Source of the DNA: Nitrososphaerota archaeon
GTDB lineage: Archaea > Thermoproteota > Nitrososphaeria_A > Caldarchaeales > Calditenuaceae
Length of the DNA stretch: 64,000 bases
Direction of reading: 5' to 3'
Assembly: GCA_033581555.1 (NCBI GenBank)
Contig: JAVQSZ010000004.1
Location: forward strand, 1 to 64,000
In this document: in pieces, positions 514 through 13,931 of the stretch
Layout: each line of letters opens with the position of its first letter
Numbering within the stretch: position 1 is the first letter of the stretch
Program-made: the position numbers and the translations under genes
The notes under the pieces: generated by a model
What the model saw: the letters and a program-made list of their open reading frames with translations, nothing else
Told to the model about the DNA's origin: nothing
Database searches by the model: none

Positions 514-572
514 CCGCTCGGAGATCAGCTCAGGTCCCCGGATATCAAGGAATTTCCGCGAGCCGACCCGAG

Positions 573-1082
573 CTATTGTAGGGGAGCCGCGTTCCTCCGC
601 TCGAACTCGAGGAGCCTGACCTTCAGTTCCGGCGAAGGGCTGTAACCTCCGGGCGATCCGTCAGACCTCACGACCCTGTGACACGGCACCAGTATCGGGA
701 CAGGGTTCGCGGCGAGCGCCGACCCGACCGCCCTCGCGCCCCTCGGCGCTCCGAGCGAAGAGGCGACCGAGGCGTAGGTCCTGGTCGAGCCGTAGGGGAT
801 CCTTGAGGTCTCCGACCAGACCGCCCTCTGAAACGGGGTGCCCCTGAGCTCCAGAGGCACGTCGAAGACCCTCCTCGAGCCCCTGAGGTACTCCTCGAGC
901 TGACGGACCGCCTGCCTCAGCGACGCAGGCCCCTCTCCCGGATCGACCGCCTCGAGCTCCGGCCTCTGCCCTATCGCGACCTGCACGACCGCGCTCGGCG
1001 TCGCGACCACCCAGACCTCCCCGACCCAGGTCCTCAGCTCGGCCGCGTATAGCTTGACCTCACCGGGCCCTGCCCTCCTCAA
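573..1082 (-). CDS. ogt: Methylated-DNA--protein-cysteine methyltransferase
   Basis: GTPFQRAVW..IPYG..ARAVG..NPVPILVPCHRVV active-site motif. Confidence 0.95.
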   Translation of the reverse strand: MRRAGPGEVKLYAAELRTWVGEVWVVATPSAVVQVAIGQRPELEAVDPGEGPASLRQAVRQLEEYLRGSRRVFDVPLELRGTPFQRAVWSETSRIPYGSTRTYASVASSLGAPRGARAVGSALAANPVPILVPCHRVVRSDGSPGGYSPSPELKVRLLEFERRNAAPLQ

Positions 1083-2439
1083 CCCCGCCGAGCCTCCTCC
1101 TGCACTCCGCGGCGAACTTCTCGACCAGTTCCTCCGCGAGCCCGACGTACTCCCCGAATTCCCTCGGGACGACGTCCTCCGCCCTGACGCCGTGCCGCTC
1201 CGCGACCCTCCTCGCGGCCTCCCCGACCCCGACGCCCTGCCTCAGCAGCGACCTCAGCTCGTCGATCGCGTCTACTCCCAGCCTCCTGAACCTGACCTGG
1301 ACCGCCTCCGAGAGGGCCTCCGGATGGGACCTCAGCTCCTCCAACATCCCCTCCCTGTCGAAGCCTATCCTGCCCAAGAACCTCCTCAGCTGCCTCACGC
1401 CGATCAGGAGGTGCGCGACCCCGACGGGCACGTTCCGCCTCACCGTCGAGTCCGAGAGGTCCCTCTGGAGCCTCGTCGTCTGAAGCCTCCTCGACGCGAA
1501 GGTCAGGACGCTCGCTGCCAGCTCGAAGTTCCCTTCGGCGTTCTCGACCTCTATCGGGTTCGCCTTCTGTGGCATCGTCGAGGACCCGACTCCCCTCGGG
1601 AGGACCGTTACGTGCCCGAGCGCGGAGAGGAGCCAGAGGTCCCTCGAGAGGTCGGTGAGCGTCATCGAGAGCGAGGCCATCGCGTCGAGGAGCGGCGCGT
1701 ACCTCTCCGCGGGGATCACCTGCTTCGTCAGCTCGACGAACTCCAGGCCCAGCGACTCCACGAACTCCCTCGCCGCGCCGAGTGCGTCCCTCCCGAAGAC
1801 CTCGACGAGGGCCGCGTAGGTCCCGACAGCTCCGCTCAGCTTCCCCGGGAACCTGAACCCCTTCAGAGACTCTAGCGACCAAAGGACCCTCGAGCCGTGG
1901 TACGCGAGCTCCCTACCGAGGGTCGTCGGGACGGCGGGCTGGCCGTGCGTCCTCGCGAGCATCAGCGTCCCCTTCTCCCTCACCGAGACCTCCGCGAGCT
2001 CGGCGCAGAGCCCCTCGAGCTCAGGGACCAGGACCCCCCTCACCGCGTCCCTCAGCGAGGTCGAGAAGGCCAAGTTGTTCACGTCTTCGGAGGTCAAGCC
2101 CGCGTGGACCCAGACCGCGGCCCCCTTCGCCCCGAGCCTCGTCAGCTCCGACTTCAGGTACCGGACAAGGGCCTCGACGTCGTGTCCGACCTCCCTCTCG
2201 ATCGCCTTTACGGCCTCCGCAGCGGAGAGGTCGAAGCGCTTCAGCACAGACCCCGCGGCCTCGACCTCCTCGGGCCCGATCGGCGCGGCCCCCCTCCTCC
2301 CCAGGAACTTCAGGTACTCGACCTCGACCGAGAGCCTCGACCTGATCAGCCCGAACTCGCTCAGGTGGGGCCTGAGGTCGTCGACGAGCTCGGCGTAGCG
2401 GCCGTCGACCGGCGAGAGCGCGAGCAGGGGGTGCGTCAC
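1060..2439 (-). CDS. purB: Adenylosuccinate lyase
   Basis: ALSPVDGRY, LTSEDVNN, ARTHGQPAVPTT, GSSTMPQKANP signature; in operon with purA and guaB. Confidence 0.95.
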   Translation of the reverse strand: MTHPLLALSPVDGRYAELVDDLRPHLSEFGLIRSRLSVEVEYLKFLGRRGAAPIGPEEVEAAGSVLKRFDLSAAEAVKAIEREVGHDVEALVRYLKSELTRLGAKGAAVWVHAGLTSEDVNNLAFSTSLRDAVRGVLVPELEGLCAELAEVSVREKGTLMLARTHGQPAVPTTLGRELAYHGSRVLWSLESLKGFRFPGKLSGAVGTYAALVEVFGRDALGAAREFVESLGLEFVELTKQVIPAERYAPLLDAMASLSMTLTDLSRDLWLLSALGHVTVLPRGVGSSTMPQKANPIEVENAEGNFELAASVLTFASRRLQTTRLQRDLSDSTVRRNVPVGVAHLLIGVRQLRRFLGRIGFDREGMLEELRSHPEALSEAVQVRFRRLGVDAIDELRSLLRQGVGVGEAARRVAERHGVRAEDVVPREFGEYVGLAEELVEKFAAECRRRLGGVEEGRAR

Positions 2440-3689
2440 CGCGCCACCACGTCTTCAGTCCCGGGCCCGACGCCCACGTACCCCACCGGCGCCCCGAGCC
2501 TCTCCTCGACGAACTCGACGTACCTCCTCGCGTTCGGGTGGAGGGCTCCGTAGCCCTCCCGTAGGACCTCGGCGCGCTCCGCGTCGTCGATCTCAGGCCA
2601 CCCCTCGAGCTCCGCGTAGACCGGCCTGACCTCGGAGAGCTCCTTGAGCGTCGCCGGGAACTCGCCTTCCCCGTAGCCCTCGTACCCGACGCAGACCTTA
2701 ACCCTCTCGAGGCCCGAGAGCGTGTCGACCCTGGTCAGGAAGACCGAGTCGGCTCCGTTCAGCTCCACGGCGAACCTCAGCTGCGCGAGGTCCAGCCAAC
2801 CTATCCTCCTCGGCCTCCCGGTCGTTGCGCCGTACTCGCCGCCCTTCTCCCTGATCCTGTCCGCGACGTCGCCCTTGATCTCCGTCGGGAACGGGCCCGC
2901 ACCGACCCTGGTCGTGTAGGCCTTCGCGACCCCGACCACCTCACCGACGAACCTCGCCGGGATCCCGCACCCGGAGTAGACGCCGGCCGAAGTCGTGAGG
3001 CTCGAGGTTACGTATGGGTATGTGCCGTAGAGGACGTCGAGCATCGTCCCCTGCGCGCCCTCGAAGACCACCTTCTCCCCTGATGCGAGGTGGGTCGCGA
3101 TCACCCTGTTAACCTCGGTCACCTCCACGTCGAGCGTCCCGAAGAGCTCCGAGAGCGACCTCGCGACAACCCGCGGGTCCACGCCCTCCATCCTCCAGAA
3201 GGCCGCGACGTCCCTGAGCTTCTCCTCGAGGGCCTCAGGCTCCAGCAGGTCCGCGACCCTGAGCCCGACCCTCCCAAACCTCTCGACGGCCGTCGGGCCT
3301 ATTCCCCTCCTCGTCGTCCCGATAGCCCTCTCGCCCCTCATCGCCTCGAGGATCTCCTCCGCCCTTAGAGCGATCTCCGTGATCACCTGCGCCCTCGGGC
3401 TGAGGATCACCTTCAGGTCGGGCCTCACCTCCCTGGACTCCCTCAGCTCCTCCGAGAGGGTCCGGAGGTCGACGTAGACGCCCGCGCAGATCGCGGCCCT
3501 CCCGCAGACCAGCCCTCCCGCAGGTATCAGGTGCATCCTGAAGGTCCTCCCGGAGTAGACGACCGTGTGGCCAGCGTTCGGGCCCCCGTTGAACCTCACC
3601 GCGAGCGCCGCGCCCTTCGAGAGGTAAGCAGCGACCTTGCCCTTTCCTTCGTCGCCCCACTGGAGCCCGACAACTGCAACAGACGGCAT
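2436..3689 (-). CDS. purA: Adenylosuccinate synthetase
   Basis: GLQWGDEGKGK, NAGHT, EGAQGTMLD, GATTGRPRRIGWLD. Confidence 0.97.
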   Translation of the reverse strand: MPSVAVVGLQWGDEGKGKVAAYLSKGAALAVRFNGGPNAGHTVVYSGRTFRMHLIPAGGLVCGRAAICAGVYVDLRTLSEELRESREVRPDLKVILSPRAQVITEIALRAEEILEAMRGERAIGTTRRGIGPTAVERFGRVGLRVADLLEPEALEEKLRDVAAFWRMEGVDPRVVARSLSELFGTLDVEVTEVNRVIATHLASGEKVVFEGAQGTMLDVLYGTYPYVTSSLTTSAGVYSGCGIPARFVGEVVGVAKAYTTRVGAGPFPTEIKGDVADRIREKGGEYGATTGRPRRIGWLDLAQLRFAVELNGADSVFLTRVDTLSGLERVKVCVGYEGYGEGEFPATLKELSEVRPVYAELEGWPEIDDAERAEVLREGYGALHPNARRYVEFVEERLGAPVGYVGVGPGTEDVVAR

Positions 3690-3694
3690 CTCCT

Positions 3695-5176
3695 TCAGGC
3701 GACGCGCTCCACGTCGTGCGGGAGGCTCTCCCTGTACCCGGCCTCGGAGATCCTGACGAAGACCGCCTTCTCCCTAAGCTCTTTCAGGTTCCTCGCGCCC
3801 AAGTAGCTCATACCCGACCTCAGCCCAGCCACAAGCTGCCTGAGGACCTCGACCGCGGAGCCCCTGTAATCGACGTAGGCCTCGATCCCCTCTGCCATGT
3901 AGGAGTAGTCTGCGACCTCATCGAGCTCGACATCGCCCCGCTCCTTCATGTCTCTGCTCAGCATCGCGTAGAACGAGGCCATCCCCCTGTAGACCTTGCT
4001 CTTCTTCCCGTTCCTCACGACGACCGAGCCCGGGCTCTCGTCGGTCCCGGCGAGCAGCATCCCGATCATCACCGTCGATGCACCGGCCGCGAGGGCCTTC
4101 ACAAGGTCCGCGGAGCTCCTGATCCCACCGTCAGCGATCATCGGGACGTCCATCCTCTCCGAGACCTCTGCGCAGTTCATGATCGCGGAGAGCTGTGGCA
4201 CTCCGACTCCAGCCACGACCCTGGTCGTGCAGACCGCTCCAGGACCGATCCCGACCTTGACCGCGTCGGCGTGGGCCGCGAGGTCCTCGAAGCCCTCAGG
4301 AGTCGCTACGTTCCCCGCGACGACCTGGACCTCGTCACCGAACTCCCTCCTGAGGGCCTTCAGGGTGTTGACCATCATGGACGTGTGGCCGTGGGCGATG
4401 TCGACCACCAGCGCGTCCACCTCGGCCTCGAGAAGCGCCCTCGCCCTCTCGATCGCGTCGGACTTCACGCCTATCGCGGCTGCCACCATCATCCTACCCT
4501 TTCTGTCCCTGGTGGAGTACGGGTGCAGGCCCCTCGACTCGATGTCCTTGGCGGTGACGAGGCCCTTAAGCCTCCACTCGTCGTCGACGATCGGTATCTT
4601 CTCGACCTTGTACCTCCTGATCAGCTCCTTCACCTCCTCCAGCGAGGCCCCCTCCCCCGCGGTGACGAGCTCGTGTCTGGGCGTCATCACGTTCCTGACC
4701 AGCTCCTCGTCGGGCTGGAAGAGCAAGTCCCTTCTGGTCACTATCCCCCACACCCTCCTCTCCCTGTCCACGACCACAAGCCCCGAGACCCCCAGCCTAG
4801 CCATCTCCCTCCTCGCGTCCTCGACCCGAGCCTCGAGCCCGATTGAGTACGGGTCCTCGACGACGATCCCCTCCGCGCGCTTGACCCTCTGGACCTCCCT
4901 GACCTGCGCCTCTATCGACATGAACCTGTGTATCACCCCGATCCCTCCCTCCCTCGCCATCGCAATCGCCATCCTGCTCTCGGTGACGGTGTCCATCGCC
5001 GCGGAGACTATCGGTATGTGGAGCTCTATACGCCTCGTGAACCTCGTCCTCGTGGACACTTCACTCCTCGACCTGATCTCAGAGTACCTCGGCAGCAAGA
5101 GAACGTCGTCGAAGGTGAGGGCGACCCCCTCAAGGAACGCCGGCAAACGATCCCAACCCCGCCGAACATCGCCCAC
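3695..5176 (-). CDS. guaB: IMP dehydrogenase with CBS pair
   Basis: LTFDDVLL, SAAMDTVTE, KVGIGPGAVCTTR, YRGMAS. Confidence 0.96.
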   Translation of the reverse strand: MGDVRRGWDRLPAFLEGVALTFDDVLLLPRYSEIRSRSEVSTRTRFTRRIELHIPIVSAAMDTVTESRMAIAMAREGGIGVIHRFMSIEAQVREVQRVKRAEGIVVEDPYSIGLEARVEDARREMARLGVSGLVVVDRERRVWGIVTRRDLLFQPDEELVRNVMTPRHELVTAGEGASLEEVKELIRRYKVEKIPIVDDEWRLKGLVTAKDIESRGLHPYSTRDRKGRMMVAAAIGVKSDAIERARALLEAEVDALVVDIAHGHTSMMVNTLKALRREFGDEVQVVAGNVATPEGFEDLAAHADAVKVGIGPGAVCTTRVVAGVGVPQLSAIMNCAEVSERMDVPMIADGGIRSSADLVKALAAGASTVMIGMLLAGTDESPGSVVVRNGKKSKVYRGMASFYAMLSRDMKERGDVELDEVADYSYMAEGIEAYVDYRGSAVEVLRQLVAGLRSGMSYLGARNLKELREKAVFVRISEAGYRESLPHDVERVA

Positions 5177-5355
5177 GACATAAAGGTTCTCCGGTGTTCA
5201 ACCAGGAAGCTTCACGAAAAGGCTGTGGGAGAGTCGTTCTTGCTGTCCGGCAGGGTAGAGGGATTGCATGAGAAGGCATTGATGATCGCTATGATCGATT
5301 CGTCGAAGTGGTCTTGCGAAACGTTTAAGCCTGCTGGTCTCGTATAAGATGCAAG

Positions 5356-5799
5356 ATGCAAGCGAAGCCCAACATGATCGTCACGATCCTGCTGGCCGCG
5401 TCGATTCTGGTAGGGATAATCATACTCGCTTTTGACGGACTGCTTTGGTTCGACAACCCAAAGAACGGACACGCGTACGCGCTGATCAGCTTCATCGCGG
5501 TGAAAGCCCTCCTCTTGTTCGGGGTCATCACAGCCAAGAGTTGGGCGCTGAGAGGCGTCTTCTATTGGGCGATCACGTACCTACTCATGCTCTTGTTAAA
5601 CCCTCTGACTGGCCCCGCAATAGGTCTAAGTCCCATCGAATTCGCGCTTTAATTGTTCGGGTTTATGCCCATCGCGAGTTTCAACGGCGTAAGCTGTCCG
5701 TTTCTCTGTCCGCCGTTCGTCGTCAGCTACACGTTCCTAGTCGTGTTGCAGGTCTTGCTGGTATTAACGGGAGTAAGGGCGATTCGTCGAGGCGGATGA
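5356..5799 (+). pseudogene. Small multi-pass membrane protein interrupted by in-frame TAA at 5650-5652
   Basis: After ...IEFAL* the same frame continues LFGFMPIASFNGVSCPFLCPPFVVSYTFLVVLQVLLVLTGVRAIRRGG* and ends in an ATGA overlap with the next start (5796). Confidence 0.65.
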
Positions 5800-6971
5800 A
5801 AGGGTCACCGCTGATCTTTGCAGCGCTCCCTTTAACGCCGCTGGTCGTCTTCCTGGGCCACGGCTACGACCTCCTGGTTAGCTACGTCGCAGCCAGAAAC
5901 GTGGCTCACGGTCTCAGCCCATACGAAGGTGGTTCCTATCCAAACCTCTCATACCCATCCGAGATCCAAGGAATAGGTGAGACACCGCTCTGGCCTCTGT
6001 TCCTCTCGATGGTTTACTCTCTCTCGGCGGGCGATATCTTCTTGTTCAACGCTCTCTCCAAAATTCCAATCATTATAAGTCTCATCGCTCTGTATTTTCT
6101 AGCGCAGAGATCGAAATTAGAACGTGGAGACTTCTATCTACTCAACTCTTACGTTCTGATGACATCTGTTGCATGGGGTAAACCTGACGTACTGGCCACA
6201 ACCCTTGTCCTGCTCGCCCTGCTGAACGTACGGAGGGCCTTTCTGTCGATTCTTCTGCTGGCAGTCTCTCTCAACGTCAAGCCCCTTGCCCTCGGCGCCG
6301 TGCCAGCCTTCGTCGCTTACTACGGATTACGAAGAGGGCTGACGTTCGCCGCCGCGTTGATTGCCCTTTCCTCGATGATCTTCTTCGCTCCCTTCGTGTT
6401 GCTCGGTTGGAGCGCTTCGACTCCCGTAACAGGGACCATCAACTGGCTCGCAGATGCCGGAGGCCTCTCCCCGCTCAACATCTTAGAGTACTTTTACGGG
6501 TGGAGCTATGCGGGCATCAATCCCCACGGCTTCGTGGTAGGGGTTCCGTGGCTTTCGGCCGTCGTCTTATCATCGGCGCTGATTTCACTCAAGAACCCTC
6601 GAGACTTCAGATCTTTGGCGTGGTTATCCCTGCTGGGGAGCACGGTTTTTCTCGTTCTAAGACCCAAAGTCTCTGAGCAGAACTTGATGCTTCCCTTCGT
6701 GTTGATACACTGGATTTCAGGCAGGCCTGTCTCAACGTCTCTCTGGGCGTCCGTGATGGTGTTCGCGATTCTCAACTACTCAATCCCTCAGCTCCTTTAT
6801 CCTGTGTGGCCCGATGTGGTGGCCGATCTTCACGAAGCCACCAAGTGGTTCGAGGAGCCTCGGTTGATCGCCCGCTTTGCTTCCTCTCTGATCTTTTACT
6901 GGCTTTTCTTCAGGGAGCTAACCAAGGTGAGGAGGCATTTGGTTGGCGTGGATTGGGCTCGCAACGGTTAA
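5796..6971 (+). CDS. Polytopic membrane protein, GT-C-fold glycosyltransferase-like
   Basis: Start reassigned to ATG 5796 (ATGA overlap). N-terminal loop GHGYD..SPY..PLWP, WGKPD, VKP, and about 10 hydrophobic segments resemble GT87/PIG-M-like proteins. Confidence 0.55.
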   Translation: MKGSPLIFAALPLTPLVVFLGHGYDLLVSYVAARNVAHGLSPYEGGSYPNLSYPSEIQGIGETPLWPLFLSMVYSLSAGDIFLFNALSKIPIIISLIALYFLAQRSKLERGDFYLLNSYVLMTSVAWGKPDVLATTLVLLALLNVRRAFLSILLLAVSLNVKPLALGAVPAFVAYYGLRRGLTFAAALIALSSMIFFAPFVLLGWSASTPVTGTINWLADAGGLSPLNILEYFYGWSYAGINPHGFVVGVPWLSAVVLSSALISLKNPRDFRSLAWLSLLGSTVFLVLRPKVSEQNLMLPFVLIHWISGRPVSTSLWASVMVFAILNYSIPQLLYPVWPDVVADLHEATKWFEEPRLIARFASSLIFYWLFFRELTKVRRHLVGVDWARNG

Positions 6972-7647
6972 CGTCCTGTGGGGCATAGCAGCTCTTCTCG
7001 ATCCGTCGATAGCCTTGGAGCCTGGACTTCCACACCCTATCGTCCTTTTCGCAGCCCACACGTTCTCTGGCTTGACGATGTTCTTCCGAAAGTCTAGGCC
7101 CTTAGCTCTCCTCATGACTGCAGGCATAACGGGTTACTACTCTCTTCTGATCAAACCGTTTGAACCGATCGCAGAACCTCAAACGGTCGGAATATTCTTC
7201 ATCGCGATCTCGATGCTGCTCTCTCACGTCGAGAAGCCAACACCGTTAAACAAGCTCGTGAGATTCGCGAGGATCGTCCTCTTTAGGGCCGGGATCGCGT
7301 ATCCGTTTTTCGAGTGGGGGCTGGACGCCTATCGCAACCCCGTGCACTTCATCAGCTATATCAGAGGTAATAACCTCGCACGGACCATTGCTTCTCCCTT
7401 AGGATTAGAGAACGCCGTCTTTGCTCTTTTCGTTGTAGAAGTATCGCTTTCATTATTTATTATGACGGGTTTTGCTAGAAAACTAGCAGGCATCACAGCA
7501 GCAGCCCTCTTGGTTCTGTTCTCATTTGTCGCAGCATATCCGTTGGCACTACCTCAGAACATAGCCCTGATAACGGCCTCTGTTTTGTACGCCCGAGAAA
7601 AGGATCACTTCATGCGTTTGAACTTAATGTCCGTGAAAAGCTCGTAA
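6943..7647 (+). CDS. Hypothetical membrane protein (DoxX-like C-terminal half possible)
   Basis: Several TM segments; R.GI..PF..WG and E......I..G...K.AG patterns reminiscent of DoxX. Confidence 0.5.
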   Translation: MAWIGLATVNVLWGIAALLDPSIALEPGLPHPIVLFAAHTFSGLTMFFRKSRPLALLMTAGITGYYSLLIKPFEPIAEPQTVGIFFIAISMLLSHVEKPTPLNKLVRFARIVLFRAGIAYPFFEWGLDAYRNPVHFISYIRGNNLARTIASPLGLENAVFALFVVEVSLSLFIMTGFARKLAGITAAALLVLFSFVAAYPLALPQNIALITASVLYAREKDHFMRLNLMSVKSS

Positions 7648-8972
7648 GGTTTCAACAGCACGTAAAGAGGCCCCAGTCTCCTCCTCAGCTTCCACTGAAT
7701 TCTGGCCTTCCAGATTCCGTAGCGTAGCTTTTCTATTGAGAATTCGTGCTTGAAGAGGAGTCTGTGGTCCCACCCGTGAACGGGCTTCTCCCATTCGAAG
7801 GTCTCCATTCTGTCCCTCACTCTCTCGTAGAGACCGGTCCCAGGAAGTGGATAGGGGACCTGCATGCTGAAGTAGTCCAGTGGCAGCGATGAAGCGAACT
7901 TGATAGTCCTCAGCATGGTTTCGTTGGTCTCTCCCGGATAGCCCAAAATGAAGAACGCCGCGACCTTCATGCCAGCCCTTTTGGCTGTCTTGACGGCAGA
8001 CTTCGACTGCGAAGTCGTTATCCTCTTGTTCATCAAGTTTCTCAAGACGTAATCGTCCCCGGACTCGAGCCCGAAGATTACCTTGTCACACTCTGCTCTC
8101 CTCATGGCTTTAGCTACTTCTGCGTCGAAGAGGTCAACGCGCGACAGACACTCCCACTGAACGTCTATGCCCTCCTTCACGATCTCCTCGCATAGTTTGA
8201 GAACGTGTTTCTTGCTGGCTATGAACAGCTCATCGGCGAACCATATCCTCTCGTACCCCCACTTGTACCTCACCTCCTCCATCTCCTCGACGACGTTCTC
8301 CGGAGACCTGTACCGGTAGACCCTCCCGTAGTCGGGCCTCCAGCAGAAGTCGCATGAAAAGGGACACCCTCTGCTCGCGATCATCGAGGTCATCAGGTAG
8401 CCGAAGTTCTTTCTGTAATACGTCTGGTAAGCCCGATGGTCGTAAAGATCGCGGGCAGGGAAGGGAAGCTCGTCGAGGTCCTTGACGAGAGGCCTAGGGC
8501 CTGTGAACTCGGGCCTCCCCCCGTCACGTCTGTGAGAAAGGTGTAGACCTTTCACGGTCTGCAACTTGAACTCTCCCCTACGGTCGGTGGCGTCCATCAA
8601 CTCCCCGACCGTCTGTTCCGCTTCGCCCTGCACCACTACGTCGAAATCCCTCAGGAACATGGTGGGGTACGCGGAGGGCATGGGGCCACCAGCTACGACC
8701 AGCTCACTGACCTCACTCGCGACTGCGGCCAAGTCCTTCGCTTGCTTTACCATCGAGAGCATGCTGTAGATGCCTGTGACCCTCGCCCCCTCCTTTCTTA
8801 TGACCCTCTCCACCTCCTCCCTGCTCATGAAAGTGCAGTCGAGGACTTTCACGTTGTAGCCTCTCTCCCTCACGTATGAGGCGATGTAACCTATCCCCAG
8901 TGGAGGGAATTGCCAGTGTTTGGACCTCCCGTCGAAGAAGTAGGGGAAGATCAGGAGGAGGTCGGTGGGCAT
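7605..8972 (-). CDS. Cobalamin-binding (class B) radical SAM enzyme
   Basis: N-terminal B12-binding region (PPLGIGYIAS, VVAGGP, GEAE), SRGCPFSCDFC CxxxCxxC motif, FGLESG, FILGYPGET; start at ATG 8972 with TATA-like TTTAAG ~26 bp upstream. Confidence 0.92.
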   Translation of the reverse strand: MPTDLLLIFPYFFDGRSKHWQFPPLGIGYIASYVRERGYNVKVLDCTFMSREEVERVIRKEGARVTGIYSMLSMVKQAKDLAAVASEVSELVVAGGPMPSAYPTMFLRDFDVVVQGEAEQTVGELMDATDRRGEFKLQTVKGLHLSHRRDGGRPEFTGPRPLVKDLDELPFPARDLYDHRAYQTYYRKNFGYLMTSMIASRGCPFSCDFCWRPDYGRVYRYRSPENVVEEMEEVRYKWGYERIWFADELFIASKKHVLKLCEEIVKEGIDVQWECLSRVDLFDAEVAKAMRRAECDKVIFGLESGDDYVLRNLMNKRITTSQSKSAVKTAKRAGMKVAAFFILGYPGETNETMLRTIKFASSLPLDYFSMQVPYPLPGTGLYERVRDRMETFEWEKPVHGWDHRLLFKHEFSIEKLRYGIWKARIQWKLRRRLGPLYVLLKPYELFTDIKFKRMK

Positions 8973-9032
8973 TCGGAACTCCGATCCCAATGTGAGCTTA
9001 AAGTTTCTCAAACTACTCCTTGATGTGAAGGG

Positions 9033-9834
9033 ATGACGGGAGATAGCGAGCTGTGGTCTCTAGGTTCGCTGTCGGTGATCCTCCTGCCCAGAGCACCCAA
9101 AGGGACCGAGATCGCTGGCGTGTGCAGAGGATTGGGGCTCCTTTACGCCGGTACCGACATCACAGGGGGAGGGTATGGGAATAGGTGGCGTAGTTCTCAG
9201 ACGAGGGAATGTCACCTACTTTCCGCTCACGTGTCGTGGTGAGGTCTGCGGGAGGCGAGCCGTGGTTACCTTCGAGCTCAACGGTCTCTCGAGGAGGTTC
9301 ATAGGGCCGCTGGACGTCACAGAACTTCACCGCCGCGTAAGAGAGGGCATGTCCTTCTTGTACATGCGTGGGGGGAGAGCTGCATCAACCTTCAGGTGGT
9401 TGATGAGGATGCGTCCGCACTTGGTGAGAACCGAGTACAAAGAGGTTGAAAAGATTGAGTCGTGCTCGCTCATGTACGCCTTCAAGAACAACACGATCGA
9501 AGTCAGGGTCTTGAGGGAGAAAAGGGTCGGGAAGTTAATCGTCGCAAACGAGCTTTCCGGTGCGCTCTTCGATCTTTTGCTTCACGACGGCAAACCCTTT
9601 AGGCTGGGTCCTTGGACGAGGTGCAGTTCAAGGTCACCGGTTCTTCTCTCAAGCAGGCTGGGAATTTACTTGAACTTCACACTTCCGAAAGACGTCGAGG
9701 TCTTCGCGGGGAGGGAGGTGATGCCGCCTCGGCTCAACTGGGCAGGCGTTGACTTAATCATGAACGAAGGTCTGGCTGAGACAAGCTATTCGGTGAGCGT
9801 CGATCTCGATTCGCAACCAAGAGCGCGGGGATGA
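9033..9834 (+). pseudogene. Hypothetical protein apparently split by a 1-bp insertion in a G run (9165-9169)
   Basis: ORFs 9033-9242 and 9175-9834 join to ...GTDITGEGMGIGGVVLRRG... if one G is removed; ATG 9033 lies ~30 bp downstream of the TATA-like element at 8997-9003. Confidence 0.5.
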
Positions 9835-10414
9835 TGGGCATCATCAGCCTAGTAGCCGCGTTCAGCAAATATCCGATTGGGTCTCCTGACTCGGGCAACT
9901 TGTAACCTAGAGCGGCCCAGATCAGGAACAGCAACAGGTTCGCGACTACAGCGATTGAGACCCATCGGACGTTCCGCCGCTTGACCCAGGGTGCCAGCAC
10001 GCTGAGGTAGGCTGCCTTGAGCGCTACCCAATCAGCGTTGGGGATGATGTGTTCTGTCAAGGTAGTCCACCCGTAGAGTGCATGCCCTATAGCAACGAAC
10101 GTGAGCTCGTAAATCTCGAACGTCGCGAGTGTCGACGCCCTTGCGACCAGGACGGCCATCACCAGACCCATCAGGCCCCCCACCTGTGTCCAAATGACGA
10201 GAGAAGTCACGAGGAGACCGAGGACCGCCGCCGCTATCGTGAACGCGTAAACGGTAGTCGCGCCGGACCTGAAGACAAGGTTGCCGGCCGCGTCCGATGA
10301 GGGGTTAAGGAGGGCCGACAGGGCGGTCTCATCGTACCATCTGAAGACTGGGATCGAACTCAAGAGGTACGCCCAGTAAACGACCCAAAGAGGCCTAGTC
10401 TGACTATCGCCCAT
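9758..10414 (-). CDS. Hypothetical multi-pass membrane protein
   Basis: Six or so hydrophobic segments; ATG 10414 overlaps the end of the upstream GT2 gene. Confidence 0.65.
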   Translation of the reverse strand: MGDSQTRPLWVVYWAYLLSSIPVFRWYDETALSALLNPSSDAAGNLVFRSGATTVYAFTIAAAVLGLLVTSLVIWTQVGGLMGLVMAVLVARASTLATFEIYELTFVAIGHALYGWTTLTEHIIPNADWVALKAAYLSVLAPWVKRRNVRWVSIAVVANLLLFLIWAALGYKLPESGDPIGYLLNAATRLMMPIIPALLVANRDRRSPNSLSQPDLRS

Positions 10415-12320
10415 CGGTCTCGATAGTCGTCCCACGGACCCTTAAATACGCTCTCAAAAGGAGGGCGAACGCGATTAACCAAAGCAGAAAGAGCAACAGG
10501 GACAGGGGGCTCACGAAGTAGAACGGAGCAGCCTCAGCGATCTGTTCCCTGATCCTCAACAGGCTGTCCTTCAGCTGGTCGAGCCCTTGTTGATACGCGG
10601 AGGAGTCGACGTTCTCCCTCGAGAGGGCGAGCGCCAACCCCTTCAGGCCCATTAAGTCCTTAGTTATCAGGCCGAAGTCCGTTCTCGGTGTAGGGAAGAT
10701 CCAGACTGGGTTCCCCTCGCGCGGCAGTATCTCGAGGGCCCTCTCCATGTAATCGACTATCTCCTCTGCGCTGGAACTAGAGGCCGCTCTCACGATGTAG
10801 GCGTTGGCTATGTCGAGCCTGTAGTACGTCTGAGAGTACCCGATTACGGTGACAGCGATGCCTAGGGTCAGCATACCGAGTATCAGGTACCTCAGTAACC
10901 GCACCCTGCCTCCTGACCTTCTCCTAGGAGTTGGTGCGTGGGTTATGGAAAGGGACCCAGCGTATATCAGGGATGCACCAGCGATGGTCAGATAGAAGGT
11001 GTAACCGTACATTAGCTTGAGCACCGATATAAGCGCCGCTATCAGGAGAACCACCCCCAAGGCCAGCTCGAGGTACGACTGCGCGTCGAAGGGCAGCACG
11101 TAGTTCTTACCTTTCCACTCTCCTTCACCGAACTTCGGGGTCCTCTGGAACGTCCTCTTCCTCCCCAAGAGGGCGTCGATGACCGCGAGAGAGTTGTTAA
11201 CTGTCATGGAGGTTACGAAGAGCAGCATGTGGGGGAAATCGTGGAGACCGGAAGCTCTGAACTTGACCGCGACGAGTGCCGCGCTCACGAGGGCCCAAGC
11301 CGCGGCTGAGGGGGCGGCAACGGTGTACACGTTGAGCAGCAAAGCTATAGGTGTGAGAGCGAGAACTGCGAGGAACAACAAGTAAGGGACGTGCCTCGTT
11401 AGGTGAAGGATAGCTTGAAGCTTCACGGCTGCTTTCACGTCGGACTTCAGTATCGATAGGAGGTGCTCTTTTGCGACCTCTATCGCCCCGTACGCCCACC
11501 TGTACTGTTGCCTCTTAGCAGCTTGGATCTGAGGAGGGACTTCACCTGGACACGCGGGTTCACCGATGTAGACAACTTTCCACCCCATCAGCTGTGCTCT
11601 CACGCTGAGTTCAAGGTCCTCTGCGAGGAAACTTCGCCACCCACCAGCCTTGACCACGCAGTCCTTTCGCCAGACGCCGGCGGTGCCGTTGAAGTTGAGG
11701 AAGAGTGAAGCTGCAGATCTGGCCTTTTGCTCCACTTCGAAGTGAAGGTCTAGGTTTAGAGCCTGACCTCTGGTGAGCGTCGAGTGACGACGGTTAATGT
11801 GTTCCCATCTCACCTGCACAACTCCTTTCCTCTCATCTACGAGGAGGTGTTCAAGAGCTTTCTTCAGGAAGTCTCGTGGTGGGACGAAGTCCGCGTCGAA
11901 TATCGCCACGAATTCACCTCGGGTCATATTAAGCGCTGCTTGTAGAGCTCCGGCCTTGAAACCCTCCCTACTCGGTCGCTTGAGGTGGATGAACTCGATG
12001 CCCTCTCGAGACTTTTCGTTGATGGTTTTCTCGATGATCTCAGATGTGTCATCAGTTGAGTCGTCAACGATGATCACTTGAAGCTTGTCACGAGGATAAT
12101 CTAAATTAGAAACAGCCTCTATCAACCTCCCTATTACGTATCTTTCATTATAAACCGGTATGTGAATCGAGACTACGGGCCACTCCTCAACATTGACCGT
12201 CGTGAGATCATTTCGCTTCCTGAAAGAGAGGAGAGCGAGGTAAACGTAGTTCAGTAAGTATACGTTAGCTATCACACCCATAACGACTATGCTGAAGCCG
12301 ACTACCTCTGGCAAACCCAT
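10404..12320 (-). CDS. Family 2 glycosyltransferase, cellulose-synthase-like, with C-terminal membrane-anchored extension
   Basis: IPVYNE, DDSTD, FKAGAL, FDADF, LAED and QQYRW (QxxRW) motifs; multiple TM helices. Confidence 0.92.
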   Translation of the reverse strand: MGLPEVVGFSIVVMGVIANVYLLNYVYLALLSFRKRNDLTTVNVEEWPVVSIHIPVYNERYVIGRLIEAVSNLDYPRDKLQVIIVDDSTDDTSEIIEKTINEKSREGIEFIHLKRPSREGFKAGALQAALNMTRGEFVAIFDADFVPPRDFLKKALEHLLVDERKGVVQVRWEHINRRHSTLTRGQALNLDLHFEVEQKARSAASLFLNFNGTAGVWRKDCVVKAGGWRSFLAEDLELSVRAQLMGWKVVYIGEPACPGEVPPQIQAAKRQQYRWAYGAIEVAKEHLLSILKSDVKAAVKLQAILHLTRHVPYLLFLAVLALTPIALLLNVYTVAAPSAAAWALVSAALVAVKFRASGLHDFPHMLLFVTSMTVNNSLAVIDALLGRKRTFQRTPKFGEGEWKGKNYVLPFDAQSYLELALGVVLLIAALISVLKLMYGYTFYLTIAGASLIYAGSLSITHAPTPRRRSGGRVRLLRYLILGMLTLGIAVTVIGYSQTYYRLDIANAYIVRAASSSSAEEIVDYMERALEILPREGNPVWIFPTPRTDFGLITKDLMGLKGLALALSRENVDSSAYQQGLDQLKDSLLRIREQIAEAAPFYFVSPLSLLLFLLWLIAFALLLRAYLRVRGTTIETDGR

Positions 12321-12761
12321 GTCGAGCTCACCTTGCACATTAAAGCGATAGAGCTCGCGTCGGTTGTGTCCTCGGACGTCTCTCTTTCACCTGCTAATTA
12401 CGCTATCGCGTTGGTTAAAAATGTTGATGAAAACTCGTAACCATTCATTCGGGCTCTGATCGTGAACTTCACTCATGGACTGCTGCTCTGCACCTCTCGC
12501 ACACTTAGCGCCTTTCGGAGACGTCCTCTGCCAAATAGAGGTCCTCGTACTCAAGCGACGGGTTGCATCCTATGACCAGTAACTTGACCGGTACTCGACT
12601 GAAACGGTGACATAACACCTAGTCATCGAGGTGCTGACGTACGCGTCTTTGAAGTGGCGATGTGCTGCTCGCCATAGAGGATCCCGAGACCACCATCACG
12701 GGGAGAGGTCGAGAGGACAGACACTTATTGGGAGGTTCAGAGCATTAGTCGAGGCCGAGAA

Positions 12762-13931
12762 TTGGTGAAGCTGATCAGGTTCTTCGCACCGAGGGGACTG
12801 AGACTAAAGAGGGCTGAGGGTCAGTACGTCTGGGACGCGGCTGGGCGCAGGTACCTCGACTACCACACCGGTAACGGTGCCGCGCTGCTCGGGCACCTGA
12901 ACCGTTACGTGGTGAGGAGGCTGATGGAGCAGCTAGAGGGGGTTATGGTCCTCCCGCCGCTCTACGAGAGCGACGTCCTCGACGAAGCCTTGAGCGCCCT
13001 CGACCGGATCCTCCCCAACCACCTCGGCAACGTCTTCTTCCAGAACTCGGGGAGTGAGGCAGTTGAGCTAGCCCTCAAGATGGCAAGGAAGAGGACGAGG
13101 AGGAGGAAGCTGGTCGCGTTCACCGGCTCCTTCCACGGCAGGACCTTCGGGGCCCTCTCCGTGACGTTCAACAAGACCTATCGCGAGGGGTACGACCCGT
13201 TCCCCTTCGAGGTGGAGTTCCTGCCCTTCAACGACGCCCAGCAGCTCTCGAGGATCGGAGAGGACGCAGCGGCCGCGATCGTCGAGCCCGTTCAAGGCGA
13301 GGGCGGCCTCACGCCCGCGAAGCCGGAGTTCCTCCGGGAGTTGGAGAGGAGGTGCAGGGAGGTCGGAGCCTACCTGATAGTCGACGAGGTCCAGTCGGGC
13401 TTCGGGAGGACCGGCGCGGTCTGGGCGCACTCGGAGTCGGGGATCAGGCCTGACGTTCTGGTCGCGGGCAAGTCGATCGGCGGCGGCTTCCCGGTCAGCG
13501 TCGTCGCGGTCACAGACGAGATCGCCCTGAAGGTCGAGGACGGCGAGCACGGCTCCACCCACGGCGGGAACCCTCTGGCCCTAGCTGCGGTGGTCGGGGG
13601 CATAGAGGCGCTGATCGGCGAGAACGTCCCCGAGAGGGCGGGAAGGGTCGGATCGACGCTCACGGACGGGCTCAGGGAGGTCGCGGCGCAGAACCCTAAA
13701 GTGGTCAGGGCGGTCAAGGGGAAGGGACTGATGATCGGCCTTGAGCTGCGGTTCAGTCCCTCTCAGGTCATCAAGGAGCTCCAGTCGAGGGGCCTCCTCT
13801 CCCTCAAGGCCGGGACGACGGTCCTCAGGTTCCTCCCTCCCTACGTGATCACCGAGGAGGACGTCGCCTGGAGCGTTAGGGTCGTGGACGAGGTGCTGAA
13901 GTCGTACCGGGAGGACGCATCATGGACCTGA
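12762..13931 (+). CDS. lysJ: Class III aminotransferase, [LysW]-aminoadipate semialdehyde/acetylornithine transaminase
   Basis: NSGSEAVE, SFHGRTFG, EPVQGEGG, DEVQSGFGRTG, GKSIGGG, HGSTHGGNP. Confidence 0.8.
   Translation: MVKLIRFFAPRGLRLKRAEGQYVWDAAGRRYLDYHTGNGAALLGHLNRYVVRRLMEQLEGVMVLPPLYESDVLDEALSALDRILPNHLGNVFFQNSGSEAVELALKMARKRTRRRKLVAFTGSFHGRTFGALSVTFNKTYREGYDPFPFEVEFLPFNDAQQLSRIGEDAAAAIVEPVQGEGGLTPAKPEFLRELERRCREVGAYLIVDEVQSGFGRTGAVWAHSESGIRPDVLVAGKSIGGGFPVSVVAVTDEIALKVEDGEHGSTHGGNPLALAAVVGGIEALIGENVPERAGRVGSTLTDGLREVAAQNPKVVRAVKGKGLMIGLELRFSPSQVIKELQSRGLLSLKAGTTVLRFLPPYVITEEDVAWSVRVVDEVLKSYREDASWT

What the first reader, a model, noticed from the sequence alone, without database searches (positions are those of the whole stretch)
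5356..12320. Lower-GC island pairing a B12 radical SAM enzyme with GT2 and GT-C glycosyltransferases: candidate new lipid-headgroup or glycan tailoring system
Seen: seven genes with foreign-looking composition inserted between guaB and lysJ. They are a cobalamin-dependent radical SAM enzyme, a processive-type GT2 (D,D,D,QxxRW), a GT-C-like polytopic protein, three unknown membrane proteins and one soluble unknown. Known: the GT2 + B12-rSAM pairing recalls hopanoid HpnI/HpnJ (sugar transfer, then ring contraction to a cyclitol). Archaeal B12-rSAMs include calditol synthase Cds and the GDGT ring synthases GrsA/B. Inference: the island may attach a sugar to an archaeal ether lipid or lipid carrier and then radically modify it (ring contraction or methylation). 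The substrate cannot be read from the sequence. This is the best candidate in the window for an undescribed system.
Basis: partly seen in the sequence, partly recalled or inferred. Interest (0 to 1): 0.8.

Follow-up and report, generated by a model that had tools for sequence, protein, structure and literature searches.

The report
Radical SAM sugar-tailoring gene cassette
A foreign-looking gene island in a hot-spring-type archaeon carries a vitamin-B12-type radical enzyme paired with an undescribed sugar-binding protein and two sugar-transferring enzymes, a combination also found in many other archaea and bacteria whose product is unknown.

Summary
Window 5177-12761 has 54.4% GC against 65.2% elsewhere and sits between guaB and lysJ. 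It encodes a cobalamin-domain radical SAM enzyme, a cellulose-synthase-like GT2, a GT-C glycosyltransferase, three small membrane proteins and one soluble unknown.

New here:
- The soluble unknown is the key partner. Its family (701 representative clusters, no Pfam or NCBIfam model) models as a galactose-mutarotase-like sugar-binding beta-sandwich.
- It lies directly beside the radical SAM gene in 36 of 57 related loci from archaea and bacteria, and in 0 of 22 more distant loci.
- Its domain is found fused to a Dol-P-Man-synthase-like GT2, a cellulose-synthase-like GT2 and a GT87-like GT-C.
- In this window the gene carries a one-base frameshift.

Best reading: a horizontally acquired cassette in which the radical SAM enzyme and its partner tailor a membrane-anchored sugar that the GT2 makes and the GT-C passes on.

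Not settled: the chemistry (methylation or rearrangement) and the acceptor (lipid head group or glycan). The HpnI/HpnJ or calditol analogy stays a lead. Scores are far below those families' cut-offs, and reference sequences for Cds and Grs could not be obtained. No description turned up in the literature searches. I rate it a new variant of a known kind.

The parts
5177..5355 (.). Left junction: intergenic stretch between guaB and the first island ORF
   Evidence: GC 0.497. No tRNA. No direct repeat shared with the right junction.
5356..5652 (+). orf98: small protein with about 3 predicted membrane helices, unknown function, uncertain gene
   Evidence: ORF list. Hydropathy gives 3 segments. 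No Pfam or NCBIfam hit. No relative in the 79 loci.
5796..6971 (+). GT-C fold glycosyltransferase (orf508 family, related to PIG-M / GT87 / ALG6), 391 aa from ATG 5796
   Evidence: Start at MKGSPL. Relatives lie beside the radical SAM gene in 11 of 57 family loci. 8 of 11 family members hit Pfam GT87, the window protein itself none. The family profile hits GPI mannosyltransferase 1 (9wno) at E=1.3e-12 and ALG6 (6snh) at 1.5e-6.
6943..7647 (+). orf234: DoxX-like membrane protein restricted to Caldarchaeales
   Evidence: 24 non-self homologue clusters, all named Caldarchaeum or Nitrososphaerota where a name is given; 9 of 24 carry PF07681 DoxX. Five share a longest-contig length with radical SAM hits, which is indirect evidence for the same contig.
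7605..8972 (-). Class-B (cobalamin-binding domain) radical SAM enzyme, 455 aa from ATG 8972; CPFSCDFC at 8343-8366
   Evidence: PF04055 100.9 bits and PF02310 61.9 bits. Best NCBIfam matches are BchE 163 and HpnJ 152, all below their cut-offs. Motif and start codon. Homologues are 455-aa proteins.
9033..9834 (+). Partner gene (orf219 family): cytoplasmic protein with a galactose-mutarotase-like beta-sandwich fold, interrupted here by a frameshift. The N-terminal piece is ORF 9033-9242 and the main piece is 9175-9834.
   Evidence: tblastn with the intact L001 homologue matches 9051-9179 in frame 3 (63% of 43 aa) and 9166-9801 in frame 1 (54% of 212 aa). AF2 model of the L001 homologue: pLDDT 91.1. 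Foldseek: YeaD, GalM, PL33, GH2 and GH101 domains.
9163..9179 (+). Frameshift site: one extra base in a G-rich run relative to L001
   Evidence: Direct comparison of window 9000-9260 with L001 3640-3900.
9758..10435 (-). orf225: membrane protein with about 4 helices, unknown function, lying between the GT2 and the partner gene
   Evidence: 53% identical homologue in the same position in L001. No Pfam hit. The Atlas search was uninformative.
10404..12338 (-). Cellulose-synthase-like membrane GT2 (636-644 aa) with D, DxD, ED and QxxRW motifs
   Evidence: PF13641 94.9, PF13632 85.8 and PF00535 82.5 bits. CelA 116 and PgaC 101 bits, below their cut-offs. BcsA 7lby at E=4.6e-22 and 6yv7 at 1.2e-16. 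Motif positions. 58% identical homologue in L001.
12339..12761 (.). Right junction: intergenic stretch before lysJ
   Evidence: GC 0.518.

Best explanation
The island is a horizontally acquired cassette that tailors a membrane-anchored sugar.

Its conserved core is a two-gene unit. One gene encodes a class-B radical SAM enzyme with a cobalamin-binding domain. The other encodes a cytoplasmic protein of about 270 aa from an undescribed family, with a galactose-mutarotase-like sugar-binding beta-sandwich fold.

Proposed path; every step is inferred:
1. The cellulose-synthase-like GT2 attaches a hexose to a membrane lipid at the cytoplasmic face. The lipid is either a polyprenyl/dolichyl phosphate carrier or an ether-lipid core.
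2. The beta-sandwich protein binds that sugar and presents it to the radical SAM enzyme.
3. The radical SAM enzyme modifies the sugar by radical chemistry. C-methylation is the commonest class-B reaction and my first guess. Ring contraction or another rearrangement is the alternative.
4. The PIG-M/GT87-like GT-C transfers or extends the lipid-linked sugar at the outer face, onto a glycolipid head group or a surface glycan.

What is shown: the gene identities, the conserved adjacency, the domain fusions, the fold and the foreign composition.
What is inferred: the substrate, the reaction, the order of steps and any physical contact between the proteins.

In this genome the partner gene carries a one-base frameshift. 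Either the cassette is inactive here or the assembly has an error.
For: - Conserved pair. The partner family is present in 39 of 57 family loci and directly adjacent (150 bp or less, often overlapping) in 36. It is on the same strand upstream in 35. It is absent from 0 of 22 more distant radical SAM loci.
- Breadth. On the radical SAM tree the pair occurs in Caldarchaeales, Bathyarchaeia, Methanomicrobiales, Methanomassiliicoccales, Dormibacterota, Actinomycetota, FCPU426 and Proteobacteria. The family clade has SH-aLRT 99.
- Fold. The AF2 model has pLDDT 91.1 and pTM 0.89. 40 PDB matches have E<=0.001; those listed are almost all domains of carbohydrate-active proteins (YeaD mutarotase 1.4e-5, PL33 lyases, heparinase III, GH2, GH101, GalM), with one virus capsid chain among them.
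- Fusions of the partner domain. P0186 joins it to a Dol-P-Man-synthase-like GT2 (5mlz, E=5.4e-50). P0200 joins it to a GT87-like GT-C. P0252 and 14 Dormibacterota-type loci join it to a cellulose-synthase-like GT2 with membrane helices, directly upstream of the radical SAM gene.
- Glycosyltransferases nearby. A strong GT2 or an orf508-type GT-C is present in 27 of 57 family loci. GT4, GT28-like, GH31 and polysaccharide deacetylase genes occur in others.
- The GT-C relatives with solved structures (PIG-M, ALG6, a mannosyltransferase) use lipid-phosphate sugars (the donor type is established knowledge).
- The same GT2-orf225-partner-radical SAM order occurs in L001, at 58, 53, 53 and 79% identity.
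- Transfer. The island GC is 0.544 against 0.652. The L001 contig is 0.52-0.60 throughout, so a lower-GC Caldarchaeales donor fits.
Against: - No substrate, product or reaction is shown.
- In several Bathyarchaeia loci the pair sits among aminoacyl-tRNA synthetase genes with no glycosyltransferase within 3.5 kb.
- 18 of 57 family loci have no partner gene nearby. Among them is a Bathyarchaeia subclade where the radical SAM gene is followed by a CDP-alcohol phosphatidyltransferase.
- In Methanomicrobiales the pair is joined to UbiA and a GGR-like gene, which also fits a lipid-tail role.
- The window's GT2 is cellulose-synthase-like, not Dol-P-sugar-synthase-like (ArnC model 26 bits). A secreted polymer is therefore equally possible.
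- Foldseek TM-scores for the partner are only 0.40-0.49, and its profile finds no PDB sequence at E<=10.
- No flippase-type protein was recognised.
- The partner gene is frameshifted in this window.
- Only the best 80 of 570 confirmed stretches were kept, and only one Caldarchaeales locus was among them.
Confidence: 0.5

Rival explanations
1. HpnI/HpnJ-like or calditol-like head-group pathway. The GT2 glycosylates an ether-lipid or other membrane lipid, and the radical SAM enzyme contracts the sugar ring to an ether-linked cyclitol.
For: - HpnJ is the second-best NCBIfam match of the radical SAM enzyme (152 bits).
- The GT2 weakly matches HpnI (29.9 bits) and GT21.
- One locus (L025) carries a polysaccharide deacetylase next to the pair, recalling the deacetylation step before HpnJ.
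- The GT-C relatives PIG-M and PimE act on lipid head-group glycans.
- Ring contraction by Cds and HpnJ is proposed in the review PMC13459092 (passages read).
Against: - All scores are far below the cut-offs (HpnJ 577.6, HpnI 310), and BchE scores higher (163).
- The Pfam scans of neighbours listed no hopanoid-cluster gene.
- A deacetylase was seen in 1 of the 33 loci whose neighbours were scanned.
- Cds could not be compared.
- The family is spread over bacteria and archaea with different membrane lipids.
Confidence: 0.15
2. Tailored exopolysaccharide. The GT2 is a processive synthase that extrudes a polymer, as cellulose or PNAG synthases do. The radical SAM enzyme and its sugar-binding partner modify the nascent chain or its precursor, and the GT-C adds side branches outside the cell.
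For: - The best matches of the GT2 are CelA (116 bits), PgaC (101 bits) and BcsA structures (E=4.6e-22). It has D, DxD, ED and QxxRW motifs and about 6 hydrophobic segments.
- In Methanoperedens (L034) the GT2 is fused to FG-GAP/beta-propeller repeats; that such repeats are typical of surface proteins is my recollection.
- L025 carries a PF01522 deacetylase; the parallel with PNAG systems is recalled.
Against: - Scores are far below the CelA and PgaC cut-offs.
- No other exopolysaccharide export gene was seen in the island.
- The fusion of the partner domain to a Dol-P-Man-synthase-like GT2 and to a GT-C points to lipid-linked monosaccharides rather than a polymer.
- GT2 enzymes with these motifs also include lipid glycosyltransferases (recalled).
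Confidence: 0.2
3. Lipid-tail modification. The radical SAM enzyme acts on isoprenoid chains, as the GDGT methylases, ring synthases or the Ted desaturase do, and the neighbouring glycosyltransferases are only loosely linked.
For: - In Methanomicrobiales the pair forms an apparent operon with a UbiA prenyltransferase and a GGR-like reductase (L046; UbiA also in L048).
- A Bathyarchaeia subclade has a CDP-alcohol phosphatidyltransferase directly downstream.
- Precedent for a B12 radical SAM gene overlapping a partner gene: Ted and Hgs (Garcia et al., bioRxiv 10.1101/2025.10.20.683597; abstract and sections 9-10 read).
Against: - The partner has a carbohydrate-type fold, gives no AttH/CrtC Pfam hit, and is fused to glycosyltransferases.
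- The family occurs in bacteria.
- The protein is 455 aa, whereas that paper searched for Cgm and Ted homologues of more than 495 and at least 500 aa.
Confidence: 0.1
4. No system. The seven genes are an accidental mosaic of transferred genes without a shared function, or a decaying remnant.
For: - The partner gene is frameshifted.
- orf98 has no relatives in the loci.
- No operon structure unites both strands.
- The pair alone occurs without glycosyltransferases in several genomes.
Against: - The same GT2-orf225-partner-radical SAM order is kept in L001 at 53-79% identity.
- Adjacency in 36 of 57 loci, and domain fusions in three architectures.
Confidence: 0.05

Closest known systems
HpnI / HpnK / HpnJ (bacteriohopanetetrol glucosamine to cyclitol ether)
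   Same: A GT2 that glycosylates a membrane lipid is paired with a cobalamin-domain radical SAM enzyme thought to rearrange the sugar. HpnJ is among the two best NCBIfam matches.
   Different: Scores are far below the equivalog cut-offs. No hopanoid gene context was seen. The partner here is a mutarotase-fold protein, which is not part of hpn clusters as I recall them. A GT-C is present. The family occurs in archaea and in many bacterial phyla.
Lipid-carrier glycosylation systems with tailoring on the carrier: ArnC/ArnD/ArnT, GtrA/B/C, and mycobacterial decaprenyl-phosphoribose to -arabinose (UbiA, DprE1/E2) feeding Emb/Aft GT-C enzymes (recalled knowledge)
   Same: The logic fits: a cytoplasmic enzyme loads a sugar on a polyprenyl phosphate, the sugar is modified while lipid-linked, and a GT-C transfers it outside. 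Here the partner domain is fused to a Dol-P-Man-synthase-like GT2 and to a GT-C, and UbiA genes accompany the pair in methanogens.
   Different: The tailoring enzyme would be a B12 radical SAM enzyme, for which I know no precedent on a carrier-linked sugar. The window's own GT2 is cellulose-synthase-like, not ArnC/GtrB-like. No flippase was recognised.
Ted-Hgs pair of Bathyarchaeota (B12 radical SAM tetraether desaturase with an overlapping AttH-like hydratase; Garcia et al., bioRxiv 2025)
   Same: A B12 radical SAM gene is translationally coupled to a small non-radical-SAM partner. It occurs in Bathyarchaeia, methanogens and Asgard archaea.
   Different: Ted homologues were searched at 500 aa or more and the partner is AttH-like. 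Here the enzyme is 455 aa, the partner has a carbohydrate-type beta-sandwich with no AttH Pfam hit, and bacteria carry the pair too.
AprD4 (radical SAM diol dehydratase acting on an aminoglycoside sugar; PDB 6fd2) and sugar C-methylases such as GenK (GenK recalled)
   Same: AprD4 is the best solved-structure match by sequence (98 bits, E=3.6e-27 over residues 160-387). It is a class-B-like radical SAM enzyme acting on a sugar.
   Different: Only the radical SAM core aligns. The NCBIfam AprD4 model gives 115 bits against a cut-off of 500. There is no aminoglycoside cluster context.

Membership tests
Class-B (cobalamin-dependent) radical SAM enzymes | Radical SAM core with a CxxxCxxC cluster motif | tested here: met
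   PF04055 100.9 bits against a cut-off of 29.5. CPFSCDFC at residues 203-210. These cysteines are invariant in 28 and in 33 aligned homologues.
Class-B (cobalamin-dependent) radical SAM enzymes | N-terminal B12-binding Rossmann-type domain | tested here: met
   PF02310 61.9 bits against a cut-off of 32.1, residues 35-138.
Class-B (cobalamin-dependent) radical SAM enzymes | Actual binding and use of cobalamin | not testable with these tools
   Needs the purified protein. AprD4, the nearest solved relative, is reported not to use cobalamin (recalled).
HpnJ (TIGR03471) | Score at or above the equivalog cut-off of 577.6 bits | tested here: not met
   152 bits.
HpnJ (TIGR03471) | Hopanoid gene context (HpnI equivalog, deacetylase, squalene-hopene cyclase) | tested here: not met
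   The GT2 scores 29.9 bits to HpnI against a cut-off of 310. No hopanoid family appeared in the Pfam scans of the window or of neighbours in 33 loci.
BchE (TIGR02026) | Score at or above the cut-off of 481 bits | tested here: not met
   163 bits.
Archaeal lipid radical SAM enzymes (Cds, GrsA/B, Gmm, Cgm, Ted) | Sequence grouping with the characterised members | not testable with these tools
Cellulose-synthase-like (processive-type) GT2 | GT-A domain with D, DxD, (T)ED and QxxRW motifs followed by membrane helices (motif definition recalled) | tested here: met
   DDSTDD at aa 92, FDADF at aa 147, LAEDLE at aa 238 and QQYRW at aa 277. PF13641 and PF13632. Six hydrophobic segments. BcsA at E=4.6e-22.
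Cellulose synthase CelA / PNAG synthase PgaC proper | Equivalog cut-offs (699 and 422 bits) | tested here: not met
   116 and 101 bits.
GT-C glycosyltransferases (PIG-M / GT87 / ALG6 group) | Sequence match to GT-C families | tested here: met
   The family profile (11 sequences) hits GPI mannosyltransferase 1 at 1.3e-12, ALG6 at 1.5e-6 and a mannosyltransferase (9dm5) at 6.7e-4. 8 of 11 members hit Pfam GT87, best E=1e-12.
GT87 proper (Pfam PF09594) | The window protein itself reaches the Pfam model | tested here: not met
   No Pfam family at E<=10 for window 5793-6968.
Galactose mutarotase-like fold | Structural similarity of a confident model | tested here: inconclusive
   The model has pLDDT 91.1. 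40 PDB matches have E<=0.001; those listed are almost all mutarotases or the beta-sandwich domains of glycoside hydrolases and polysaccharide lyases. TM-scores are only 0.40-0.49 and identity is 6-13%.
Aldose 1-epimerase (mutarotase) enzymes | Catalytic His/Glu pair (recalled) | tested here: not met
   No invariant or nearly invariant histidine in the 25-sequence alignment. The conserved polar residues are E48, N174, E175, R229 and E230.
Gtr/Arn-type three-component lipid-carrier glycosylation | DPM1/GtrB/ArnC-type GT2, a small flippase and a GT-C | tested here: inconclusive
   A GT-C is present. The window GT2 is not ArnC-like (26 bits). No flippase family was recognised in orf98, orf234 or orf225. 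However, the partner domain is fused elsewhere to a Dol-P-Man-synthase-like GT2.

The most novel reading that the evidence does not exclude
The radical SAM enzyme and its mutarotase-fold partner modify a sugar while it is still attached to a dolichyl or polyprenyl phosphate carrier, for example making a C-methyl or carbocyclic sugar donor. A GT-C then transfers this sugar to surface glycans or lipid head groups. That would be a previously unknown way of diversifying lipid-linked sugar donors, shared by archaea and bacteria of anoxic soils and hot springs.
Probability: 0.25. Interest if true: 0.85.

Novelty: new variant of a known kind. Interest (0 to 1): 0.65.

Why it matters
Class-B radical SAM enzymes are a large family, and most members have no known reaction. 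This work defines a subfamily with a fixed partner of an undescribed protein family: 701 representative clusters and no Pfam or NCBIfam model. The partner is tied by adjacency and by gene fusion to three kinds of glycosyltransferase.

That gives a concrete, testable handle on an unknown sugar modification. The modification would be present in Caldarchaeales, Bathyarchaeia, methanogens, Dormibacterota and Actinomycetota, groups whose surface glycans and polar lipids are poorly known and are used as environmental biomarkers.

If the substrate is a carrier-linked sugar, it would add radical chemistry to the known ways of making glycosyl donors.

Tried and rejected
- Complex prediction of the L001 radical SAM enzyme with its partner, both given as alignments: score 0.00 in both runs, verdict 'no answer'. 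It counts neither for nor against binding.
- Relating the window's small membrane proteins to other sequences. hhalign of orf98, orf234 and orf225 against the recurrent DUF420 neighbours gave probabilities of 0.3% or less. The same three and the orf508 family against the Dormibacterota fusion protein gave 1.2% or less. No relation was found.
- Atlas search for orf225: nothing usable. For the partner: only 'hypothetical protein' clusters, plus a DUF2264_C lead at 0.89.
- Middle membrane region of the Dormibacterota fusion. There was no PDB or Pfam sequence hit. The AF2 model is poor (pLDDT 55.9). Its Foldseek list is headed by GT-C enzymes (ArnT 1.6e-3, STT3/OST, PglB, AftA, ALG9/12), but none reaches E<=0.001. 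This is a lead only: the bacterial fusion may be GT2 + GT-C + partner domain in one chain.
- Defence-system reading: PADLOC gave only a 27-bit generic radical SAM match. Rejected.
- Mobile-element marks at the island ends: no tRNA, no integrase, and no shared direct repeat of 14 nt or more at both junctions.
- The bacterial promoter and terminator scan does not apply to an archaeon and was ignored.
- The small radical SAM gene next to the Bathyarchaeia subclade's gene is a LipS2 lipoyl synthase (356 bits, above its cut-off). It is not part of a system.
- The listing of cluster members could not be run.
- Literature searches found no description of this pairing. Only titles and abstracts of the listings were seen, except for the two papers named in the report.
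- Mantel correlation between pairwise identities of the radical SAM enzymes and their partners is r=0.84, with 0 of 2000 permutations reaching it. It is confounded by the relatedness of the genomes, so it is not used as evidence of co-transfer.

Full report
**What is there.** The window is about 65% GC. The stretch between guaB (3695-5176, minus strand) and a LysJ-type transaminase (12762-13931) drops to 0.51-0.58 per kb. Over 5177-12761 the GC is 0.544 against 0.652 for the rest. Third-codon-position GC of the island genes is 0.58-0.75 against 0.88 in the two flanking genes. The tetranucleotide distance from the rest of the window peaks at 0.466 over the island and is 0.08-0.14 elsewhere. The soluble proteins share the low GC3, so a bias from membrane proteins does not explain it. 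No tRNA, integrase or flanking direct repeat marks the ends. Homologues identify the host as a Caldarchaeales (Aigarchaeota) archaeon.

**The genes**.
- orf98 (5356-5652, +): about three membrane helices. No relative anywhere in the fetched loci.
- GT-C glycosyltransferase (5796-6971, +): the 508-aa ORF really starts at ATG 5796.
- orf234 (6943-7647, +): a membrane protein.
- Cobalamin-domain radical SAM enzyme (7605-8972, -, 455 aa): PF04055 plus PF02310, with CPFSCDFC at residues 203-210.
- The soluble unknown (9033-9834, +).
- orf225 (9758-10435, -): a membrane protein.
- Cellulose-synthase-like GT2 (10404-12338, -): DDSTDD, FDADF, LAEDLE and QQYRW motifs and about six hydrophobic segments.

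No NCBIfam equivalog is reached. For the radical SAM enzyme the best are BchE 163 bits (cut-off 481) and HpnJ 152 (cut-off 578). For the GT2 they are CelA 116 (cut-off 699), PgaC 101 (cut-off 422) and HpnI 29.9 (cut-off 310).

**The soluble gene is broken here.** The intact homologue in locus L001 matches the window in two frames: 9051-9179 (63% of 43 residues) and 9166-9801 (54% of 212 residues). Side-by-side reading shows one extra base in a G-rich run at about 9163-9179. This is either a real frameshift or an assembly error. I could not tell which.

**Related loci.** The radical SAM enzyme has many 450-460-aa relatives. Caldarchaeum and Aigarchaeota proteins are 59-79% identical. Bathyarchaeia, Conexivisphaerales and Asgard proteins are 46-53% identical. 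The best 80 were kept, giving 79 loci, only one of them from Caldarchaeales (L001).

I translated all six frames of the loci and searched them iteratively with each island protein. I then counted.
- 57 loci belong to the family: 36% identity or more, plus L057 and L062, which the tree places inside.
- 39 of these carry a relative of the soluble unknown. 36 are directly adjacent (a gap or overlap of 150 bp or less), and 35 are upstream on the same strand.
- Among the 48 loci with at least 1 kb of flank on both sides, the counts are 35 and 32.
- None of the 22 more distant radical SAM loci has a relative of the soluble unknown.
- A strong match to the island GT2 occurs in 17 loci and the GT-C family in 11. 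Either occurs in 27 of 57.
- L001 keeps the order GT2-orf225-partner-radical SAM at 58, 53, 53 and 79% identity, with the same divergent arrangement of partner and radical SAM gene as the window.

**Tree.** I built a quick maximum-likelihood tree of 66 radical SAM proteins. 7 of 54 family ORFs shorter than 380 aa were dropped. The L025 row was a wrongly picked ORF on a very long branch and should be ignored. The tree gives one family clade (SH-aLRT 99) against four distant bacterial sequences. It puts the window with L001 and Caldarchaeum proteins (100). Partner-linked loci appear in every major branch: Proteobacteria, FCPU426, Methanomicrobiales, Dormibacterota, Actinomycetota, Bathyarchaeia and Caldarchaeales.

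The loci without a partner are mostly one nested Bathyarchaeia subclade. There the gene is followed by a CDP-alcohol phosphatidyltransferase and by a LipS2 lipoyl synthase. The second is a housekeeping gene.

**What the partner is.** Neither the window protein nor 15 homologues scanned give any Pfam hit. Neither the window protein nor two of the fusion proteins scanned against NCBIfam show a model covering this domain. The Atlas knows the family only as 'hypothetical protein'.

A profile of 25 members finds 701 representatives at E<=0.001 (554 at 1e-10, 333 at 1e-30) among 1.84 billion proteins. Most are 260-300 aa. The alignment shows GEGxGFGVP, NE(Q/L), GRE and WAG motifs, and no conserved histidine.

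An AlphaFold model of the intact L001 protein is confident (pLDDT 91.1, pTM 0.89) and almost all beta-strand. Foldseek against the PDB gives 40 matches at E<=0.001. Those listed are, with one exception (a virus capsid chain), mutarotases or the beta-sandwich domains of carbohydrate-active enzymes: YeaD 1.4e-5, PL33 lyases, heparinase III, GH2, GH101, GalM and an alpha-N-acetylgalactosaminidase. TM-scores are a modest 0.40-0.49. The proteins have no predicted membrane segment, so a cytoplasmic sugar-binding role is the simplest reading.

**Gene fusions.** Three architectures join this domain to glycosyltransferases.
- P0186 (539 aa, no membrane segment) has an N-terminal GT2 whose best solved relative is dolichol monophosphate mannose synthase (5mlz, E=5.4e-50), followed by ArnC and GtrB-type enzymes.
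- P0200 (751 aa) has a GT87-like GT-C in front of the domain.
- P0252 and 14 Dormibacterota-type loci have a cellulose-synthase-like GT2, a long membrane region and then the domain, in proteins of about 1200-1300 aa that end right at the start of the radical SAM gene.

The membrane region of these fusions modelled poorly (pLDDT 55.9). Its Foldseek list is headed by GT-C enzymes, but none reaches E<=0.001. I keep that only as a lead.

**The other island proteins.**
- The GT-C family profile hits GPI mannosyltransferase 1 (E=1.3e-12), ALG6 and a mannosyltransferase. 8 of 11 members hit Pfam GT87, although the window protein alone hits nothing. From established knowledge, these relatives use lipid-phosphate sugar donors and several act on lipid head-group glycans.
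- orf234 belongs to a Caldarchaeales-restricted family, with 9 of 24 homologue clusters annotated DoxX. Five of its homologues share a longest-contig length with radical SAM homologues (14452, 43180, 40622, 54257, 118802). Two GT2 homologues do likewise (28290, 1550299). This is indirect evidence that the genes travel together within the order.
- The GT2 has a first tier of 58-62% relatives in Caldarchaeum. It also has a broad second tier at 35-42% across Nitrososphaeria.

**Other neighbours of the pair.** These vary:
- DUF420 membrane proteins in six loci;
- two GT4 genes (L053);
- a GT28-like gene (L049);
- GH31 with a second B12 radical SAM gene and a Gfo/Idh/MocA oxidoreductase (L020);
- a polysaccharide deacetylase (L025);
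- UbiA, with or without a GGR-like gene, in Methanomicrobiales (L046, L048).

In several Bathyarchaeia loci the neighbours are only housekeeping genes.

**Origin of the island.** The L001 contig has 0.52-0.60 GC throughout, like the island. A transfer from a lower-GC member of the same order fits the data. The closest radical SAM relatives are only 79% identical, so no donor can be named.

**Interpretation.** Shown so far: the identities, the conserved pair, the fusions, the fold and the foreign composition. From these I infer a cassette that tailors a membrane-anchored sugar. The GT2 makes the lipid-linked sugar. The beta-sandwich partner presents it to the radical SAM enzyme. The GT-C passes it on at the outer face. 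The fusions to a Dol-P-Man-synthase-like enzyme and to a GT-C point to a carrier-linked sugar. The window's own GT2, being cellulose-synthase-like, leaves a glycolipid head group or a polymer open. The reaction cannot be read from sequence. Methylation is the commonest class-B reaction (established knowledge), and ring contraction as proposed for HpnJ and Cds is the main alternative (review PMC13459092, passages read).

**Known systems.** The Ted-Hgs pair of Bathyarchaeota (Garcia et al., bioRxiv 10.1101/2025.10.20.683597) is a precedent for a B12 radical SAM gene coupled to a small partner. I read its abstract, section 9 (part 1), section 10 and searched passages; its supplements are closed. 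It differs in enzyme length and partner family, and it is restricted to archaea. Five literature searches found no description of the present pairing.

**Limits.**
- Only 80 of 570 hits were examined, and only one was from Caldarchaeales.
- The complex prediction gave no verdict.

Noticed in passing
window 21062-21165 (+): Rfam finds a tRNA of 104 nt (56.6 bits) that ARAGORN did not report. It is probably an intron-containing archaeal tRNA.
   Followed up: no
window 23060-24472 (+) and 18506-19861 (-): A second GT-C glycosyltransferase (PMT_2/PMT, Dol-P-Man-dependent type) and a phosphoglucomutase/phosphomannomutase lie in the native-GC part of the window. The host therefore already has lipid-carrier glycosylation genes.
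   Followed up: no
window 54025-54987 (+) and 57308-58387 (+): A diphosphomevalonate-decarboxylase-like gene and a polyprenyl synthetase gene (isoprenoid supply) lie in the native part of the window.
   Followed up: no
L032 (record titled Candidatus Micrarchaeaceae archaeon), 6372-11251: Its GT2-partner fusion and radical SAM gene sit inside the tight Dormibacterota clade of the tree (end branch 0.1). The contig is probably mis-binned, or else a very recent transfer.
   Followed up: no
L034 (Methanoperedens), 5776-11323: A 1409-aa protein joins the cellulose-synthase-like GT2 to FG-GAP/beta-propeller repeats in place of the partner domain. It overlaps the start of the radical SAM gene.
   Followed up: partly
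L046 7208-11302 and L048 3853-6969 (Methanomicrobiales): A UbiA prenyltransferase (in L046 also a geranylgeranyl-reductase-like gene) forms an apparent operon with the partner and radical SAM genes, with overlapping gene ends in L046.
   Followed up: partly
L003, L004, L006, L009, L011, L014 (Bathyarchaeia), about 10001-13050: In a nested subclade the radical SAM gene has no adjacent partner. It is followed by a CDP-alcohol phosphatidyltransferase (weak PgsA and archaetidylinositol-phosphate-synthase matches) and a LipS2 lipoyl synthase.
   Followed up: partly
L020 (candidate division FCPU426), 3-9826: Two B12 radical SAM paralogues flank the partner gene, with a GH31 glycosidase upstream and a Gfo/Idh/MocA oxidoreductase downstream.
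   Followed up: no
L062 5859-6416 and 10725-11363: A serine resolvase and a Fic-domain gene lie next to the radical SAM-partner pair in a proteobacterial contig, hinting at mobility of the pair.
   Followed up: no
L015 8674-9087, L053 8666-9079, L025 1775-2515, L024 12082-12516, L045 5790-6254, L052 4273-4563: A small DUF420-type membrane protein recurs near the pair in six loci, directly upstream of the partner gene in L015 and L053. It is unrelated to the window's small membrane proteins.
   Followed up: partly
window 1060-5176 (-): Adenylosuccinate lyase, adenylosuccinate synthetase and IMP dehydrogenase form a purine gene row that ends at the island's left edge.
   Followed up: no
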